A DNA stretch of 9,063 nucleotides from a virus (lineage: Duplodnaviria > Heunggongvirae > Uroviricota > Caudoviricetes): IMG/VR virus record IMGVR_UViG_3300029121_000075; one strand, 5' to 3'. This document shows positions 1 to 6,853 of the stretch, piece by piece (position 1 is the stretch's first letter; the number at the start of each line of letters is the position of its first letter). The position numbers and the translations under genes are program-made. The notes beneath the pieces were generated by a model, which saw only the letters and a program-made list of their open reading frames with translations, did no database searches and was not told the origin of the DNA.

Positions 1-465
1 GTGTCCATTAAAAATGATGGACATTATTTTTGTAGAGCCGGAGGAAACAGACCAGACGGTTTAAATGAGCCGGTTACGTTGATGCGTGATATTCAGATGG
101 TTCTTGAGCGTTGGGGAGCGTGGGCGGCTAATAATCATGAAGATGTGACCTGGTCGTCCATTGCCGCCGGTTTTAAGGGATTAATTACTTCAAAAGTAAA
201 ATCTCGCCCGCAATGTTGTGACGATGACGCGATGATCATTTGCGGGTGCATGGCCCGTCTGAAAAAGAACAACAGCGATTTGCACGATTTATTAGTAGAT
301 TATTATGTAGTCGGTATGACATTCATGTCACTGGCAGGTAAGCATTGCTGCTCTGATGGTTATATCGGGAAAAGGTTACAGAAGGCTGAGGGCATAATTG
401 AAGGGATGTTAATGGCATTAGATATCCGGTTAGAGATGGATATCGTTGTTAATAACTCTAATTAA
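1..465 (+). CDS. Late-gene antitermination protein Q (lambdoid, DLP12 QuuD-like type). Drawn from the GTG at the window edge; a more probable start is ATG 82 (127 aa).
   Basis: Frame is open from position 1. Cys-rich segments ([20 protein letters not shown]) fit a Q-type zinc-binding region. Sits immediately upstream of a convergent porin gene and the lysis cassette, as in DLP12 (quuD then nmpC). Identification is from memory of the family, not a search. Confidence 0.7.
19..77. repeat. Left arm of an exact 59-bp inverted repeat (partner 9005-9063)
   Basis: I reverse-complemented 19-77 by hand and it equals 9005-9063 base for base. Identity stops at 78 vs 9004. Possible extension into 1-18 cannot be tested because the partner would lie beyond 9063. 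Confidence 0.95.
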
Positions 466-653: not shown

Positions 654-1736
654 TTAGAACTGGTAAACCATACCTACAGCAACGATATCATCGGTAGCAA
701 CGCCAGATGCTTTCGTGAAATCGCTCTTATCAATCAGGTTGATTTTGTAGTCAACAAAAGTGGACATATTTTTGTTGAAGTAATAGGTTGCACCTACATC
801 AACATATTCAACCAGGTCCTGATCACCCCAAACACCCAAGTCTTTTCCTTTAGAATGCAGGTAAGCAACGGATGGACGCAGGCCGAAGTCGAACTGATAT
901 TGTGCAACAGCTTCGAAGTTTTGTGCTTTGTTGGCAATATGGTTATTACCAAAAACAGTCATGTTCTGGGTTTCAGAATAGGTGGTGGCCAGATAGATGT
1001 TGTTCGCATCATATTTCAGACCAGCTGCCCATACTTCAGCATTTTGACCAGAAGCATTCAGACCGTTGTTACCGTAGATAACCTGATTATTAGTGCGATC
1101 AGATTTAGCATAGGTTGCACCCACGCCGAATCCTTCATACTCATAAGTAGTTGAGAAACCGAAACCATCGCCATTAGCTTCAGTTACTTCATTTCGGTCA
1201 TTTTTGCCCTGATACTGAGCTGCAAAGTTCAGGCCATCAACCAGACCAAAGAAGTCGTTGTTACGATAAGTTGCAACACCTGTGGTGCGACCAGTCATGA
1301 ATACATCTGTTTGGGTCCAGGTATCGCCACCGAATTCTGGCAGAACGTCAGTCCACGCACCGATGTCGTATGCTACACCGTAGTTACGGCCGTAATCGAT
1401 TGAGCCGTAGTCACCGAATTTCAGGCCTGCAAATGCAAGACGGGTTTTGTCTTTGGAGGAACCTTGAGATTCAGCGCGGTTGCCTTTGAATTCATATTCC
1501 CACTGACCGAAACCAGTCAGTTGATCGTTGATTTGGGTTTCACCTTTGAAGCCAAGACGGGCATAAGTAGTATCACCATCATCTGCATCATTAGAGGAGA
1601 AGTAGTGCTTAGCATTAACTTTCCCGTACAGATCCAGCTTGTTACTGTCTTTATTATAAATTTCAGCTGCCTGAGCAGACATCGCCATCAGTACTGATGC
1701 AGCTACAGCAGAAATTGCCACTGTTAATTTTTTCAT
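654..1736 (-). CDS. nmpC: Outer-membrane general porin, OmpC/OmpF/PhoE family (prophage-borne NmpC/Lc/OmpD type)
   Basis: 360-aa ORF. N-terminal signal peptide [23 protein letters not shown] then AEIYNK. Porin hallmarks [32 protein letters not shown], and C-terminal aromatic end ...VGMVYQF. Placement between Q and the holin on the opposite strand matches DLP12 nmpC and phage PA-2 lc. Confidence 0.92.
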
Positions 1737-2324
1737 CGTGAGCCCTTTTTTTTGAACTATTATTAAAAAATGATGTCACTGCGCGATAAATATTCATCTA
1801 ATCAATGTGATTATTTCAAGATGTAAGTTTTAGTTTCTCATTTAATTTGTGAAGTAGATCTCTATTTTTATCTGAACTTTTTCTATCGAAACCTATTTAT
1901 GGCTCTTATTTGAACAAAAATAAACCTATTAGCTAATTTATATTAATGGCTGTTATTTATGGGGGTTCTATAATTCGGCAGTTTAATTTAAATCAACTAA
2001 AAATAACGTCTGAAATTATTTATTGGTTATTTGTTGAGGTTTTCTTATGTATTTGTGGTGGAGTTTTGAACACTCGGTAGCATTCTCATAAATATCATTC
2101 AGTGGTTTACGTACGTAAAAAATTGGTTATGCTGTTAAGAGTGGTTACTTCGTCACACAGCTTAAACCCGCCGTCGAGCTGGTTTTTCCATTTTTTGAGT
2201 CTCGATATTAGCTGATAACTCAATACCTGAGTTATTCACTGACTCCGAGTCTGTTACGTTTCTGCTTTTTTGCGATACGTTGTATTCCCTCAATTTACAC
2301 CCGCTTTGTCTGCGAGGTGGGGTT

Positions 2325-2540
2325 ATGAAATCCATGGATAAGTTAACAACGGGTGTCGCCTATGGCACCTCAGCAGGTAGTGCCGGTTACTGGTTTTTAC
2401 AGCTGCTCGATAAAGTCACGCCCTCACAGTGGGCAGCAATAGGTGTGCTGGGTAGCCTGGTATTTGGCCTGCTGACGTACCTGACAAATCTTTATTTCAA
2501 GATTAAAGAAGACAGGCGTAAGGCTGCGAGAGGAGAGTAA
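2325..2540 (+). CDS. Class II holin (pinholin), phage 21 S21-like, with dual-start motif (Met1 antiholin, Met4 holin)
   Basis: 71 aa starting MKSMDK, near-identical in pattern to S21 ([13 protein letters not shown]...[12 protein letters not shown]...[19 protein letters not shown]). Shine-Dalgarno GAGGTGGGG lies 6 nt upstream of ATG 2325. The ORF-track start at 2280 is a non-ATG upstream extension. Confidence 0.92.
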
Positions 2541-2544
2541 TCCA

Positions 2545-2852
2545 ATGACTCAAGACTATGAACTGGTTGTGAAAGGAGTCCGTAATTTTGAGAATAAAGT
2601 TACGGTAACTGTAGCCTTACAGGACAAAGAACGCTTTGACGGTGAAATTTTTGGCCTGGATGTCGCCATGGACCGTGTTGAAGGAGCTGCGCTGGAGTTT
2701 TATGAGGTAGCAGCCAGAATGAGCGTCCGGCAAGTCTTCCTGGAAGTAGCAGAAAAATTGTCAGAAAAAGTTGAGTCTTATCTGCAGCATCAGTACTCCT
2801 TTAAGATTGAAAATCCTGCCAATAAGCACGAGCGTCCTCATCATAAATATCT

Positions 2853-2856
<4 letters not shown>
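2545..2856 (+). CDS. ydfR: YdfR-like protein (DUF1327), unknown function, inside the lysis cassette
   Basis: 103 aa, no predicted transmembrane segment. Starts 5 nt after the holin stop behind SD GAGAGGAGAG and overlaps the endolysin start (ATGA). Same size and position as ydfR between essQ and rrrQ in the K-12 Qin prophage. Confidence 0.8.
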
Positions 2857-3880
<1,024 letters not shown>

Positions 3881-4130
3881 ATTAATATTAAATCGGATTA
3901 TTTTTAGCGCTGAATGTGAAATTTAAATAAAAAGGACTCTTCCATGAGTCAAAATCCTTGAAATCTTAAGGGTAAGATAAAAGGTCATTAGACAGAATGA
4001 CACGTTTTATTAATAAATAAAGCTATTGTTTCATTCGTGTGTTTTTCTTTACAAAAGTAATCCTTGCTATGGTTGGTTAATCATGCGTTAATGGTGTTCT
4101 GGTTTGTTACAAAATTATCTGAAGCAGTCA

Positions 4131-4243
4131 TTGTTATAATTTTATTATTTGTACCTCTTGAGATTTCCTTGTTGGTTTTTCTCTCTGATATTTTTTTTCG
4201 GACCATTCTGCCCAAGGGCTAACTTCTTCAAAAGGTAATAATG
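4131..4243 (+). promoter_or_regulatory. Candidate promoter and 5' UTR of the cold-shock gene
   Basis: Extended -10 TGTTATAAT at 4132-4140 in an AT-rich upstream region. UTR segment GCCCAAGGGC...AAAGGTAATA resembles the cspA upstream box plus SD. No transcript data. Confidence 0.3.
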
Positions 4244-4456
4244 ATGTCTAACAAAATGACTGGTTTAGTGAAATGGTTTAACCCTGAAAAAGGTTTTGGT
4301 TTCATCACGCCGAAAGATGGTAGCAAAGATGTGTTTGTGCATTTCTCAGCTATTCAGAGCAACGATTTCAAAACGTTAACTGAGAATCAGGAAGTCGAAT
4401 TTGGTATTGAGAACGGACCTAAAGGCCCTGCAGCTGTTCATGTAGTGACACTTTGA
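4244..4456 (+). CDS. cspI: Cold-shock protein, CspA family (CspI-like)
   Basis: 70 aa [38 protein letters not shown]... with RNP1 (KGFGFI) and RNP2 (VFVHF) motifs. SD AAAGG upstream. The ORF track begins one codon earlier at ATG 4241. Confidence 0.92.
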
Positions 4457-4684: not shown

Positions 4685-4802
4685 CTTAGTGTCTAGTCGA
4701 TGGATACTCACATATTACGGTAACATTATGAAAAAAATAATAGTTTTTTTTAACTCTGAACCAGCAATGGTAGTGCCAGTGATGACCGGAGTTAACACCA
4801 TC

Positions 4803-4958
4803 ATGCGTGAATATCCAAATGGCGAAACAACACACCTCACTGTAATGGCTGCAGGGTTTCCATCTCTGACCGGAGATCATAAAGTCATTTATGTAGCAGC
4901 GGATCGACATGTAACTTCAGAAGAAATTCTGGAAGCAGCAATGAGACTCTTGAATTGA
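4803..4958 (+). CDS. ynfN: YnfN-like small prophage protein (51 aa); start uncertain
   Basis: 51-aa MREYPNGETTHLTVMAAGFPSLTGDHKVIYVAADRHVTSEEILEAAMRLLN matches my recollection of Qin YnfN in size and sequence pattern. GGAG lies 11 nt upstream. The frame stays open upstream to ATG 4728 (MKKIIVFF...) and GTG 4689. Confidence 0.6.
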   Translation: MREYPNGETTHLTVMAAGFPSLTGDHKVIYVAADRHVTSEEILEAAMRLLN

Positions 4959-5130
4959 TTTGATTCTAATGCATTGATAATAAATGATAATCATCTTTAT
5001 CTGTTTGTGTGAAATTTAGACCGTCGTATGTTGATTATTGCGATGTTTCATCTTATCTTTTATACGTTTGCTCCATATAATTGACACTACTGTGTACCAG
5101 GACAGTCATAACAGACTAAAAGAGGAAATG

Positions 5131-5304
5131 ATGAACATTGAAGAGTTAAAAACAAAAACAGAAGCAGATATTTCTGAATATATAACAAAAAAAATCATTG
5201 AGCTTAAGAAAAAGACCGGGAAAGAAGTTACCAGTATCCAGTTTACTGCACGGGAAAAAATGACTGGTCTTGAAAGCTATGATATCAAGATTGATTTAAT
5301 CTAG
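5131..5304 (+). CDS. gnsB: GnsA/GnsB-family small protein (57 aa)
   Basis: MNIEELK...KTGKEV..I.FTAREKMTGLESYD.KI is the Gns family signature. SD GAGG at 5122-5125. The TTG-initiated extension back to 5038 in the ORF track is not supported. Confidence 0.85.
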   Translation: MNIEELKTKTEADISEYITKKIIELKKKTGKEVTSIQFTAREKMTGLESYDIKIDLI

Positions 5305-5366
5305 CATGTTTATAGTATTAGCATCAATTTCTCATCAGATGCTATTCAACAATACAAATTACCCAT

Positions 5367-5392
5367 AAACCTCGTTTTTACGGGGTTTTGTT
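5367..5392 (+). terminator. Candidate intrinsic terminator downstream of the gnsB-like gene
   Basis: Hairpin CCUCG-UUUUUA-CGGGG (5370-5385), extendable by A:U pairs, followed by UUUUGUUAUAUUU. Confidence 0.35.
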
Positions 5393-5599
5393 ATATTTAA
5401 ACATTACCGAATAGATATAAATCTCGATTGTCGATGGTATTGGTTGTGTGACAATACCTAGTCTTTCCGGTATGCCTGAAGAGAATACAAACGACAGATT
5501 ATGTAAGGGAAACGCGCTGAAACTTTCACTCTTTCATGCTGAGTGATTTGACGTTATATTTTTAGCCGCAAGTGAAGAGCAAACGAATGGAGCGACAAA

Positions 5600-5806
5600 A
5601 TGCATAAAGATCAATACACTGATGCCCCCTCCCAGGAGCAGGTTCGTGTAAAAACTATGCTTAATAGCACCATTTCGATGGGTTACCCGGATGTTGTAAT
5701 TGCATGTATAGAACATCAAGTATCTCTGGAAGCATTCAGGGCAATTGAGGCCGCGTTAGTAAAGCACGATAAGAATACGAAGGATTATTCCCTGGTGGTT
5801 GACTGA
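5600..5806 (+). CDS. Hypothetical protein (68 aa), orphan ORF upstream of cos
   Basis: ATG preceded by GGAG at 5589-5592 (7-nt spacer). No transmembrane segment or recognisable motif. Positionally equivalent to the ydfO region of Qin, but I cannot confirm homology. Confidence 0.5.
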
Positions 5807-6358: not shown

Positions 6359-6853
6359 ATGGATCGAGAGTTAAAAAATCTGACGCTGAATATCAGTCAA
6401 CTGGCGGCACTGTCAGGTGTACATCGCCAGACTGCTGCGGCAAGGCTGCAAAATCTACCCGTTGCAGGGGGGCATGAAAGCAACCTCAAGCTTTATCGGG
6501 TGGTTGATATTGTGTCGGCATTTCTGGCATTGCCACCGCCGGTTGCAGAAGGCGAAATGGACGCGCATGAGCGCAAAGCCTGGTATCAGTCTGAACGTGA
6601 GCGTCTTAAGTTCGAACAGGAAACGGCACAACTCATTCCGGCCAGTGATGTCAGACGGGAGTTTGCCATCTGGGCAAAAGCGGTCGTGCAGGTGCTGGAG
6701 ACATTACCGGATATTCTGGAACGTGACTGCGGTCTGCAGCCTGCCGCTGTGAGCCGTGTTCAGTCCATTATTGATGATCTGCGCGATCAGATAGCCCTGC
6801 GGGTGACTGAAGCAGGTGCGGATGATGAGGAGGAATTACAGCAGGAGGAGTAA
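6359..6853 (+). CDS. Terminase small subunit (Nu1-like, winged-HTH DNA-binding)
   Basis: 164 aa. N-terminal HTH-like LNISQLAALSGVHRQTAAARLQNLPVAGG parallels lambda Nu1 (QLADIFGASIRTIQNWQEQGMPVLRGGG). Acidic C-terminus. SD GGAG 5 nt upstream. Stop overlaps the terL ATG (TAATG). Confidence 0.8.
   Translation: MDRELKNLTLNISQLAALSGVHRQTAAARLQNLPVAGGHESNLKLYRVVDIVSAFLALPPPVAEGEMDAHERKAWYQSERERLKFEQETAQLIPASDVRREFAIWAKAVVQVLETLPDILERDCGLQPAAVSRVQSIIDDLRDQIALRVTEAGADDEEELQQEE

What the first reader, a model, noticed from the sequence alone, without database searches (positions are those of the whole stretch)
2545..2856. Soluble DUF1327 (YdfR-like) gene between holin and endolysin
The canonical S-R-Rz cassette is interrupted by a 103-aa acidic protein with no membrane segment, tightly coupled to both neighbours (5-nt gap upstream, ATGA overlap downstream). 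Stoichiometric co-expression with a pinholin and a SAR endolysin, whose activation depends on membrane depolarisation, makes it a candidate lysis-timing regulator.
Basis: inference. Interest (0 to 1): 0.45.

Follow-up and report, generated by a model that had tools for sequence, protein, structure and literature searches.

The report
ydfR: optional gene in prophage lysis cassette
The small gene between the holin and the lysozyme is ydfR, an already catalogued, optional E. coli prophage gene of unknown function; comparison with related phages argues against a dedicated lysis-timing role, and the only experimental lead is that the protein binds the host RNA-cutting enzyme RNase E.

Summary
A 103-codon ORF (2545-2856, +) lies between an S21-type holin (2325-2540) and a 177-aa SAR-type lysozyme (2853-3386). 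The upstream gap is 4 nt, not 5, and the downstream ATGA overlap is real. The protein is soluble and mildly acidic (pI 5.55), and it matches Pfam DUF1327 (E 7.6e-51). It is 100/103 identical to E. coli K-12 YdfR from the Qin cryptic prophage, so the gene and its arrangement are already known and annotated.

The lysis-timer idea is not supported by comparison. Only about 100 of 438 phage records with this holin type carry DUF1327. Phages cdtI and Stx2 II have S directly followed by R. Only the first ~72 residues are conserved, and everything after them is hypervariable. More distant members sit after an unrelated HP1-type holin, after Rz, or inside tail operons. What these positions share is late co-transcription, not lysis.

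The family is tiny (56 clusters in 1.84 billion representatives) and confined to Escherichia/Shigella phages. No significant structural relative was found. A 2026 paper shows that K-12 YdfR(1-72) binds the RNase E/G catalytic half and co-purifies with RNA. The best reading is an accessory late protein acting on host RNA metabolism. Interest is low to moderate.

The parts
1..465 (+). Late antiterminator Q (3' part or all; the ORF starts at the window edge). It drives the late transcript that contains the lysis genes.
   Evidence: PF06530 Phage_antitermQ, E 6.7e-53
654..1736 (-). OmpC/NmpC-like porin gene on the opposite strand between Q and the holin. It is a lysogenic-conversion insert and is context only.
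   Evidence: PF00267 Porin_1, E 3.6e-152. Phage D2 has the same arrangement.
2325..2540 (+). S21-type class II holin of 71 aa, with the dual-start motif Met1-Lys2-Ser3-Met4 and a basic cytoplasmic tail [13 protein letters not shown].
   Evidence: PF04971, E 1.2e-35; phrog_9876 and phrog_20 holin; sequence
2531..2535 (+). AGGAG Shine-Dalgarno for ydfR, inside the last codons of the holin and 9 nt before the ATG. In phages without DUF1327 the same element serves R.
   Evidence: Read from the sequence. Junction alignment of window, L001-L005 and L093.
2545..2856 (+). ydfR (DUF1327), 103 aa: the finding itself.
   Evidence: PF07041, E 7.6e-51. 100/103 identical to K-12 YdfR b1555.
2545..2760 (+). 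Conserved N-domain, residues 1-72: three beta-strands (5-14, 18-27, 34-43) packed on a long helix that starts at residue 50. This is the only part shared by the whole family, and it is the part reported to bind RNase E/G.
   Evidence: Alignment A1. AF2 blockwise pLDDT 80-96 over this stretch. dN/dS 0.2-0.45. PMC13232886.
2761..2853 (+). Form-specific C-terminal tail, residues 73-103: basic, 37.5% GC. The helix continues to about residue 83 and the rest is predicted disordered. Other family members have unrelated sequence here.
2853..3386 (+). Endolysin R of 177 aa, a T4-lysozyme-type muramidase with an E35-x8-D44-x5-T50 triad and a Gly/Ala-rich N-terminal SAR-like segment. It has no Shine-Dalgarno of its own and starts in the ATGA overlap with ydfR.
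   Evidence: PF00959, E 6.2e-24; phrog_7 endolysin. KD19 maximum 1.67 at residue 9. Leader comparison.
3383..3880 (+). Rz-type inner-membrane spanin subunit (rzpQ-like).
   Evidence: PF10721 DUF2514, E 3.6e-38; phrog_312 Rz-like spanin
3576..3830 (+). Rz1-type outer-membrane lipoprotein spanin subunit, embedded in the +1 frame of Rz (rzoQ-like; lipobox LTSC).
   Evidence: ORF list. phrog_11621, E 4.7e-8. Same size and position as rzoQ in K-12.

Best explanation
The ORF is ydfR, the DUF1327 gene of a Qin/DLP12-type lambdoid prophage of E. coli. It encodes a soluble cytoplasmic protein made of a conserved ~72-residue beta3-alpha domain plus a 31-residue form-specific tail.

It is transcribed as part of the Q-dependent late operon. 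Its translation starts from the Shine-Dalgarno that lies in the end of the holin gene. In this compact form it passes ribosomes on to R through the ATGA overlap.

It is an optional accessory gene that occupies the S/R junction, not a component of the holin-endolysin-spanin machine. Its most likely activity is the one shown for the 97%-identical K-12 protein: the N-domain binds the catalytic half of RNase E (and RNase G), and the protein carries RNA. On this reading it acts on host RNA metabolism late in the lytic cycle. Any effect on lysis timing would be indirect, through translational coupling to R.

Shown: identity, anatomy, optionality, positional promiscuity, domain limits, and RNase E/RNA binding (from the literature).

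Inferred: that RNase E is the physiological target, and what the consequence of binding is.
For: Identity:
- PF07041, E 7.6e-51.
- 100/103 identical to K-12 YdfR, with the same essQ-ydfR-rrrQ-rzpQ order.

Optional gene:
- The holin occurs in 438 phage records and DUF1327 in about 100. By phage type the counts (holin / DUF1327) are Stx1a 47/41, Stx2c 17/15 and Stx2a 124/2.
- S abuts R directly in cdtI and Stx2 II.

The shared feature is late co-transcription, not lysis:
- In 267 loci the gene is always on the strand of the flanking late genes, 3-41 nt behind the upstream gene.
- That upstream gene is an S21 holin in 252 loci, an HP1-type holin in 4, Rz in 2, tail L in 3 and tail I in 4.
- No promoter-like site occurs in 1700-4400.

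Domain limits:
- Only residues 1-~72 are conserved, and minimal members are 71-76 aa long.
- The AF2 model is confident for strands 5-43 and the helix from residue 50. The tail is disordered.
- This matches the YdfR(1-72) fragment that was isolated three times in a two-hybrid screen and is sufficient for binding RNase E/G.
- Strep-YdfR co-purified Rne(1-598) and DNase-resistant nucleic acid (PMC13232886).

Real protein: dN/dS of the N-domain is 0.2-0.45.
Against: - The RNase E link rests on one study. The full-length fusion was two-hybrid positive only with Rne1-597. The co-purification came from lysate and could be bridged by RNA. Overproduction changed few transcripts and did not affect growth.
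- About 94% of sampled loci are at the S/R junction, so a lysis-linked role for that subgroup cannot be ruled out.
- Sampling is biased towards relatives of the queries.
Confidence: 0.45

Rival explanations
1. Lysis-timing regulator. A soluble cytoplasmic protein binds the pinholin's basic C-terminal tail, or the SAR endolysin before its release, and advances or delays triggering. The analogy is the cytoplasmic antiholin RIII of phage T4.
For: - The gene sits at the S/R junction in 252 of 267 sampled loci, with an invariant 3-4-nt spacing behind the holin.
- The acidic N-domain (pI 4.6) could in principle contact the basic holin tail [13 protein letters not shown].
- Translation is coupled to R.
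- Soluble lysis regulators exist, for example T4 RIII (abstract of PMC8385771).
- The Keio ydfR mutant is listed in the supplement of an envelope-defect screen.
Against: - About three quarters of phages with this holin type lack the gene.
- The same holin and R177-type lysozyme are directly adjacent in Stx2 II.
- Members follow an HP1-type holin with an unrelated 50-aa tail, and others lie in tail operons or after Rz.
- Two N-domain types that are only 44% identical pair with nearly invariant holin tails and SAR segments, and they mix freely, so there is no co-variation.
- Overproduction in K-12 gave no growth phenotype.
- The screen hit is unvalidated. It could be a polar effect of the resistance cassette on rrrQ (my inference).
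Confidence: 0.12
2. Half of a mobile two-gene cassette. The ancestral unit is a minimal DUF1327 gene, a GC hairpin, and a convergent gene expressed in the lysogen. The DUF1327 protein works with or against that partner, for example as a late-expressed antidote or regulator. The window copy would be an orphan that lost its partner and gained a read-through tail.
For: - Every architecture with more than 230 nt between DUF1327 and R contains a convergent ORF.
- The same partner family accompanies DUF1327 at different genome positions, with correlated divergence. For F98 (after S, after Rz, after tail I) the identities are DUF1327 65/39/36% against partner 85/61/61%. For F182 (tail L/K and after Rz) they are 28% against 44%.
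- One AGCGGC-N-GCCGCT hairpin sits at or next to the DUF1327 stop codon in all 20 loci that carry it: every 71-76-aa form with an F98, F182 or F104b partner, at four genome positions.
Against: - The partners belong to at least nine families with no detectable relationship. A specific protein-protein pairing is therefore unlikely.
- The commonest forms, including the window, have no partner. These are the 103-, 114- and 116-aa forms, 172 of 267 loci.
- No partner matches any Pfam, PADLOC or NCBIfam family.
- A simple insertion hot spot downstream of DUF1327 would explain part of the pattern.
Confidence: 0.15
3. No activity of its own. The ORF is a tolerated filler at a recombination-prone junction, and its only effect is to set how many ribosomes reach R (a translational spacer or coupler).
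For: - R has no Shine-Dalgarno of its own here and starts in the ATGA overlap. In phages without DUF1327, R uses the Shine-Dalgarno that ydfR uses here.
- Frameshifted 129-aa versions occur, for example in Shigella flexneri L105.
- The family is tiny and confined to one genus.
Against: - dN/dS is 0.2-0.45 over the N-domain across lineages down to 28-44% identity.
- A confident compact fold is predicted.
- The same domain is kept in tail-operon positions, where no coupling to R exists.
- Specific binding partners have been reported.
Confidence: 0.08

Closest known systems
YdfR (b1555, UniProt P76160) of the E. coli K-12 Qin cryptic prophage; Pfam PF07041 DUF1327 / NCBI 'YdfR family protein'
   Same: 100/103 identical. 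The flanks are the same (essQ-ydfR-rrrQ-rzpQ/rzoQ-cspI), as are the 4-nt gap and the ATGA overlap.
   Different: There are three amino-acid changes (G37D, V55A, M59R). Here the cassette sits behind a DLP12-like Q gene and porin gene and in front of apparently intact terminase genes, so this prophage may be less decayed than Qin.
Phage 21 / Stx2-phage S-R-Rz/Rz1 pinholin-SAR endolysin cassettes
   Same: The holin family and dual start are the same. The 177-aa lysozyme is 89% identical to that of Stx2 II. Both have embedded spanins.
   Different: Those cassettes have S directly followed by R, with a 4-nt gap or an overlap. Here an extra gene occupies that junction.
Phage proteins that bind host RNase E: T4 Srd, phiKZ Dip (PMC4980113), T7 gp0.7
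   Same: A small phage-encoded protein is reported to bind RNase E. Like T4 Srd it targets the N-terminal catalytic half (my recollection of the Srd work; YdfR data from PMC13232886).
   Different: No sequence or fold similarity was detected; no such protein appears among the fold-search hits. No effect on RNase E activity has been shown. This gene is expressed late from a temperate phage, not early from a virulent one.
T4 RIII, a cytoplasmic antiholin
   Same: A small soluble cytoplasmic phage protein that would act on a holin.
   Different: No homology is evident. RIII acts on holin T in lysis inhibition, and nothing comparable has been tested for YdfR. The comparative pattern argues against an obligatory holin partnership.
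Morons of lambdoid phages (extra genes inserted between conserved neighbours)
   Same: The gene is inserted between two genes that are adjacent in related phages. Its GC content is lower than that of its neighbours (43.3% against 48.6% and 50.4%). Presence is patchy.
   Different: It has no promoter or terminator of its own and is translationally coupled to both neighbours. The classic moron features belong instead to the convergent genes that follow DUF1327 in other phages.

Membership tests
DUF1327 / YdfR family (PF07041) | Match to the family HMM above the gathering threshold | tested here: met
   170.7 bits against a cut-off of 25, E 7.6e-51, profile positions 1-93 of 93
DUF1327 / YdfR family (PF07041) | Conserved N-domain core (Y5, L50, Y53, E54, A57 invariant; E6, L7, V9, K10, G11, G47, E51, F65 nearly invariant) | tested here: met
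   Alignment A1 of 22 members down to 30% identity
S21-type pinholin / SAR-endolysin lysis cassette (context of the gene) | Class II holin of the P21 S family with a dual-start motif | tested here: met
   PF04971, E 1.2e-35; MKSM start; 71 aa
S21-type pinholin / SAR-endolysin lysis cassette (context of the gene) | Endolysin with an N-terminal signal-anchor-release domain that is exported by Sec and released on depolarisation | tested here: inconclusive
   Sequence features fit: a Gly/Ala/Ser-rich weakly hydrophobic segment at residues 8-25, KD19 1.67, and an E-x8-D-x5-T triad. Membrane release itself cannot be tested here.
S21-type pinholin / SAR-endolysin lysis cassette (context of the gene) | DUF1327 is a regular component of such cassettes | tested here: not met
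   438 phage records carry the holin and about 100 carry DUF1327. In cdtI and Stx2 II, S is directly followed by R.
Antiholin / lysis-timing regulator | Binds the holin or endolysin and changes the time of triggering | not testable with these tools
   Requires genetics or biochemistry. No paper holds both 'ydfR' and 'holin'.
Antiholin / lysis-timing regulator | Genomic association restricted to lysis cassettes of one holin type | tested here: not met
   Members occur after an HP1-type holin (PF16080), after Rz, between tail L and K, and between tail I and J.
Phage-encoded RNase E-binding proteins | Physical binding to RNase E | not testable with these tools
   Reported for K-12 YdfR: two-hybrid with Rne1-597, fragment 1-72 sufficient, and co-purification of Rne1-598-FLAG (PMC13232886). 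Not re-tested here.
Phage-encoded RNase E-binding proteins | Sequence or fold similarity to a known member (Srd, Dip, gp0.7) | tested here: not met
Phage-encoded RNase E-binding proteins | Measurable change in RNase E activity or RNA stability | not tested
   The published overexpression RNA-seq showed only a few changes. No in vitro assay has been reported.
Moron | Inserted between genes that are adjacent in related phages | tested here: met
   S and R are adjacent in Stx2 II and cdtI.
Moron | Own promoter and terminator that allow expression from the prophage | tested here: not met
   No promoter-like site in 1700-4400, against 6.4 expected from shuffles. No terminator near the gene. The gaps are 4 nt and -4 nt.

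The most novel reading that the evidence does not exclude
The ~72-residue DUF1327 domain is a new kind of phage late protein that docks on the catalytic half of RNase E/G. Its ancestral form is a mobile unit made of the DUF1327 gene, a hairpin terminator and a convergent lysogen-expressed gene. On this reading it controls the decay of the colliding sense and antisense transcripts, or of the long late mRNA, wherever the unit lands: the S/R junction, after Rz, or the tail operon. The window's ydfR would be a partner-less derivative that keeps the RNase E-binding module.
Probability: 0.12. Interest if true: 0.6.

Novelty: already known. Interest (0 to 1): 0.25.

Why it matters
ydfR-type lysis cassettes occur in most E. 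coli genomes. The 1.7-kb cassette query matched 5153 of 5426 complete genomes, and 2064 of them covered at least 80% of it. Stx1a and Stx2c phages nearly always carry a DUF1327 gene, while Stx2a phages almost never do. The gene's function is still unknown.

If the protein really modulates RNase E during prophage induction, it would add a temperate-phage example to the few known phage effectors of the RNA degradosome. It could also influence late-gene expression in toxin-converting phages, including Shiga toxin, which is transcribed from the same late operon.

If instead it tunes lysis, it would be a new soluble regulator of pinholin systems.

As it stands, the finding re-identifies a catalogued gene. 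The comparative data speak against the proposed lysis role.

Tried and rejected
- **Single-sequence AlphaFold:** the model was useless (pLDDT 44.8). A 22-sequence alignment was needed to reach pLDDT 80.6.
- **Giant-protein hit:** the phmmer hit to a 3128-aa repetitive protein (P0149, E 9.7e-7 summed over 6 repeats) looks like a repeat-inflated chance match. I did not pursue it.
- **Phage D2:** I first took it as an example of an identical holin without DUF1327. Reading the junction showed it keeps the first 48 nt of ydfR, fused out of frame to an R21-type lysozyme. I dropped it as a counter-example.
- **Envelope screen:** the screen cited for ydfR lists it only in supplementary tables. I treat that as unvalidated and possibly polar on rrrQ.
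- **Convergent partner genes:** they had no Pfam, PADLOC or NCBIfam matches, and hhalign found no relation among families. A common partner superfamily is not supported at this depth.
- **Holin/endolysin co-variation:** it was uninformative, because the putative contact regions are nearly invariant.
- **IMG/VR scans:** the P0158 query found nothing. The P0140 and P0153 queries found 1 and 3 loci.
- **Literature:** the searches 'ydfR'+'holin' and 'essQ'/'rrrQ' gave nothing on lysis.

Full report
**What is in the window.** The window is the late-gene region of a lambdoid prophage of E. coli.
- It carries antiterminator Q (1-465), an opposite-strand porin gene (654-1736) and a 71-aa holin (2325-2540).
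- Next come the 103-aa ORF in question (2545-2856) and a 177-aa lysozyme (2853-3386).
- These are followed by Rz (3383-3880) with an embedded Rz1 frame (3576-3830), a cold-shock gene (4241-4456) and the small and large terminase genes (6359-6853, 6853-8955).
- Megablast of the 1.7-kb lysis region found matches in 5153 of 5426 complete E. coli genomes. The genes under the best matches are annotated essD, ydfR ('DUF1327 domain-containing protein'), rrrQ and rzpQ.

**Check of the observation.** The ORF is as described.
- The holin ends with TAA at 2538-2540 and the ORF starts at 2545, so the gap is 4 nt, not 5.
- An AGGAG Shine-Dalgarno lies at 2531-2535, inside the holin's last codons.
- The lysozyme ATG (2853) overlaps the ORF's TGA (2854-2856).
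- The protein matches Pfam DUF1327 over the whole model (E 7.6e-51).
- It has pI 5.55 and net charge -4. Its most hydrophobic 19-residue stretch scores 0.70, against 1.7-2.3 for the holin, lysozyme and Rz.
- The acidity is confined to residues 1-74 (pI 4.6). The last 29 residues are basic (pI 9.2).
- The holin is of the phage-21 S family (PF04971, E 1.2e-35) and has the MKSM dual start.
- The lysozyme has a Gly/Ala-rich N-terminal segment and an E-x8-D-x5-T triad, as expected of a SAR endolysin. Membrane release cannot be tested here.

**It is a known gene.** K-12 MG1655 has the same cluster in the Qin cryptic prophage: essQ, ydfR (b1555), rrrQ, rzpQ/rzoQ, cspI. The window protein is 100/103 identical to K-12 YdfR. 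The DNA from the holin through the lysozyme is 97% identical, including both junctions.

**Size and range of the family.**
- A full HMMER pass over 1.84 billion representative proteins found only 56 clusters.
- The word-indexed search of 5.8 billion clusters found 187.
- A scan of one genome for each of 185,579 species found the gene only in E. coli, E. ruysiae, E. albertii and Shigella. Two further hits were in metagenome bins labelled Veillonella and Bacillota, which carry near-identical E. coli-type prophage DNA and are probably mis-binned.
- All 100 phage records with a match are Escherichia or Stx phages.

**Only the first ~72 residues define the family.**
- The hit sequences share residues 1 to about 72. 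After that they continue with unrelated sequence of 0 to more than 200 residues.
- Minimal members are 71-76 aa long.
- With a 22-sequence alignment, AlphaFold gives a confident model (mean pLDDT 80.6). It has strands 5-14, 18-27 and 34-43 packed on a helix at 50-83, and residues 88-103 are disordered.
- The N-domain evolves under purifying selection, with pairwise dN/dS mostly 0.2-0.45 down to 28-44% identity. It is a real protein, not a chance ORF.

**Test of the proposed link to pinholin/SAR cassettes.** I ran an approximate version of it.

1. *The gene is optional.*
   - The holin type occurs in 438 phage records, and DUF1327 in about 100.
   - By phage type the counts (holin / DUF1327) are Stx1a 47/41, Stx2c 17/15 and Stx2a 124/2.
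   - Nine records appear in both printed lists. In all nine the DUF1327 match begins 8 nt after the last matched holin codon, which is the same 4-nt gap.
   - In phage cdtI the holin (98.6% identical) overlaps an R21-type lysozyme directly.
   - In Stx2 phage II the holin is followed after 4 nt by a lysozyme 89% identical to the window's. That lysozyme uses the Shine-Dalgarno that ydfR uses here.
   - The same holin and lysozyme types therefore operate without DUF1327.
2. *The gene is not restricted to this holin, or to lysis cassettes.*
   - P0132 (72 aa, 53% identical) follows an HP1-type holin (PF16080). That holin's 50-residue cytoplasmic tail is unrelated to the S21 tail.
   - P0140 (71 aa) follows Rz.
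   - P0158 (76 aa) lies between tail genes L and K.
   - P0153 and its relatives lie between tail genes I and J.
   - Across the 267 loci gathered (a redundant, query-biased sample), the gene is always on the strand of the flanking late genes and 3-41 nt behind the upstream gene.
   - What the positions have in common is late co-transcription.
3. *The connection to R is hypervariable.* At least 40 architectures were seen. The lysozyme carries its own conserved leader...gataaatatcc-ATGA, which lacks a Shine-Dalgarno, in those other architectures. In the window's 103-aa form the ydfR frame simply runs into that leader, and this creates the ATGA overlap.
4. *There is no co-variation.* Two N-domain types that are only 44% identical pair with nearly invariant holin tails and SAR segments, and they mix freely.

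**What experiments say.**
- No paper in the library holds both 'ydfR' and 'holin'.
- One 2026 study (PMC13232886) screened for partners of the RNase E N-terminal half.
  - A fragment comprising YdfR residues 1-72 was isolated three times, with RNase G as bait. It gave two-hybrid signals with RNase G, full-length RNase E and Rne1-597.
  - The full-length short-linker fusion was positive only with Rne1-597.
  - Strep-YdfR co-purified FLAG-tagged Rne1-598 and large amounts of DNase-resistant nucleic acid.
  - Overproduction changed few transcripts and did not slow growth.
- The interacting fragment coincides with the conserved domain defined here from comparative data alone.
- The envelope screen cited there lists the ydfR deletion only in supplementary tables. 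A polar effect of the resistance cassette on the downstream SAR lysozyme would explain it, but that is my inference.

**Most likely explanation.**
- ydfR is an optional late gene lodged at the S/R junction. It is translated from the Shine-Dalgarno in the end of S and, in this form, passes ribosomes on to R.
- Its conserved domain most likely acts in the cytoplasm on RNase E/G and RNA, not on the membrane lysis clock.
- My confidence that it is not a core or dedicated lysis component is about 0.8.
- My confidence that RNase E is the physiological target is about 0.35-0.4.
- For the combined statement I give 0.45.
- The rivals are a lysis-timing regulator (0.12), a function tied to a convergent partner gene (0.15) and a passive translational spacer (0.08). 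The remaining probability covers functions not listed here.

**A side observation from related loci.**
- When more than 230 nt separate DUF1327 from R, the interval always holds a convergent ORF of 74-210 aa. These ORFs belong to at least nine unrelated, uncharacterised families.
- The same partner family accompanies DUF1327 at different genome positions, with correlated divergence.
  - One 98-aa family follows DUF1327 after the holin, after Rz and after tail I. The identities are DUF1327 65/39/36% against partner 85/61/61%.
  - A 182-aa family occurs between tail L and K and after Rz.
- A GC hairpin, AGCGGC-N3-7-GCCGCT, occurs once per locus at or next to the DUF1327 stop codon in 20 loci. 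These are the 71-76-aa forms with F98, F182 or F104b partners, at four genome positions. On the opposite strand it is followed by a U-run, so it looks like the partner's terminator.
- The window has neither the hairpin nor a partner.
- This suggests that the ancestral unit was a small mobile cassette and that the window's 103-aa form is a partner-less derivative with an added tail.

**Novelty and interest.** The gene, its family and its position have been annotated in K-12 for decades, so the finding is already known. The function is open. The lysis-timer hypothesis is testable, but comparative evidence is against it. The RNase E lead and the cassette pattern are the parts a specialist might find worth following. 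Overall interest is 0.25.

Noticed in passing
L005:2501-3040, L108:1229-1765, L109:3501-4048, L086:4001-4821, L094:503-1328 (related loci, not the window): Minimal DUF1327 genes (71-76 aa) travel as a unit with a convergent gene. A 98-aa family (phrog_25324) or a 182-aa family (phrog_18578) follows them at four different positions in phage genomes, with correlated divergence of the two genes.
   Followed up: partly
L005:2720-2737, L086:4222-4239, L094:719-736, L109:3721-3738 and 16 more loci: A conserved GC hairpin, AGCGGC-N3-7-GCCGCT, sits at or next to the DUF1327 stop codon in 20 loci with a 71-76-aa form, once per locus. On the opposite strand it is followed by a U-run, which makes it a likely terminator for the convergent gene. 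It is absent from the window.
   Followed up: partly
interval between DUF1327 and R in L003, L004, L104, L112, L119, L219 and others: The S/R interval is a hypervariable hot spot. At least 40 architectures and at least nine unrelated families of small convergent ORFs were seen. None has a Pfam, PADLOC or NCBIfam match.
   Followed up: partly
L091:2216-2290 (Escherichia phage D2): The holin is 100% identical to the window's. It is followed by the first 48 nt of ydfR, joined out of frame to an R21-type lysozyme that lacks its start and part of its SAR segment. This is a deletion or recombination scar, and the lysis cassette may be defective.
   Followed up: no
window 2840-2856 and the ~45 nt upstream of R in L001, L003-L005, L096, L104, L107: The 177-aa lysozyme genes share a conserved leader, ...ttaacatatccagggatt..gataaatcctgataaatatcc-ATGA, with no recognisable Shine-Dalgarno. 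How R is translated in those phages is unclear.
   Followed up: no
window 654-1736 (-): An OmpC/NmpC-like porin gene lies on the opposite strand between Q and the holin, as in DLP12 and phage D2. The window therefore combines a DLP12-like Q-porin segment with a Qin-like lysis segment.
   Followed up: no
window 1700-4400: The consensus scan found no sigma-70 promoter-like site, against 6.4 +/- 2.8 expected from shuffles. The AT-rich stretches 1737-2324 (33% GC) and 3881-4240 (30% GC) flank the lysis genes.
   Followed up: no
window 4241-4456 and 4689-5806: Downstream of the spanins lie a CspI-like cold-shock gene and several small Qin-type ORFs, ahead of terminase genes that look intact (6359-8955). 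This suggests a prophage less decayed than K-12 Qin.
   Followed up: no
phage records: DUF1327 presence follows Stx phage type. By phage type the counts of holin-bearing records / DUF1327-bearing records are Stx1a 47/41, Stx2c 17/15 and Stx2a 124/2.
   Followed up: no
L101 (Veillonella parvula MAG) and L103 (Bacillota MAG): Two metagenome-assembled genomes of Firmicutes carry E. coli Qin-type lysis cassettes at 83-96% protein identity. Contig mis-binning is the most likely cause.
   Followed up: no
L105:4001-4390 (Shigella flexneri) and six IMG/VR loci (e.g. L007, L009, L012, L052): These are frameshifted 129-aa ydfR variants that read into the +1 frame across the start of R. They indicate decay of the gene in some cryptic prophages.
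   Followed up: no
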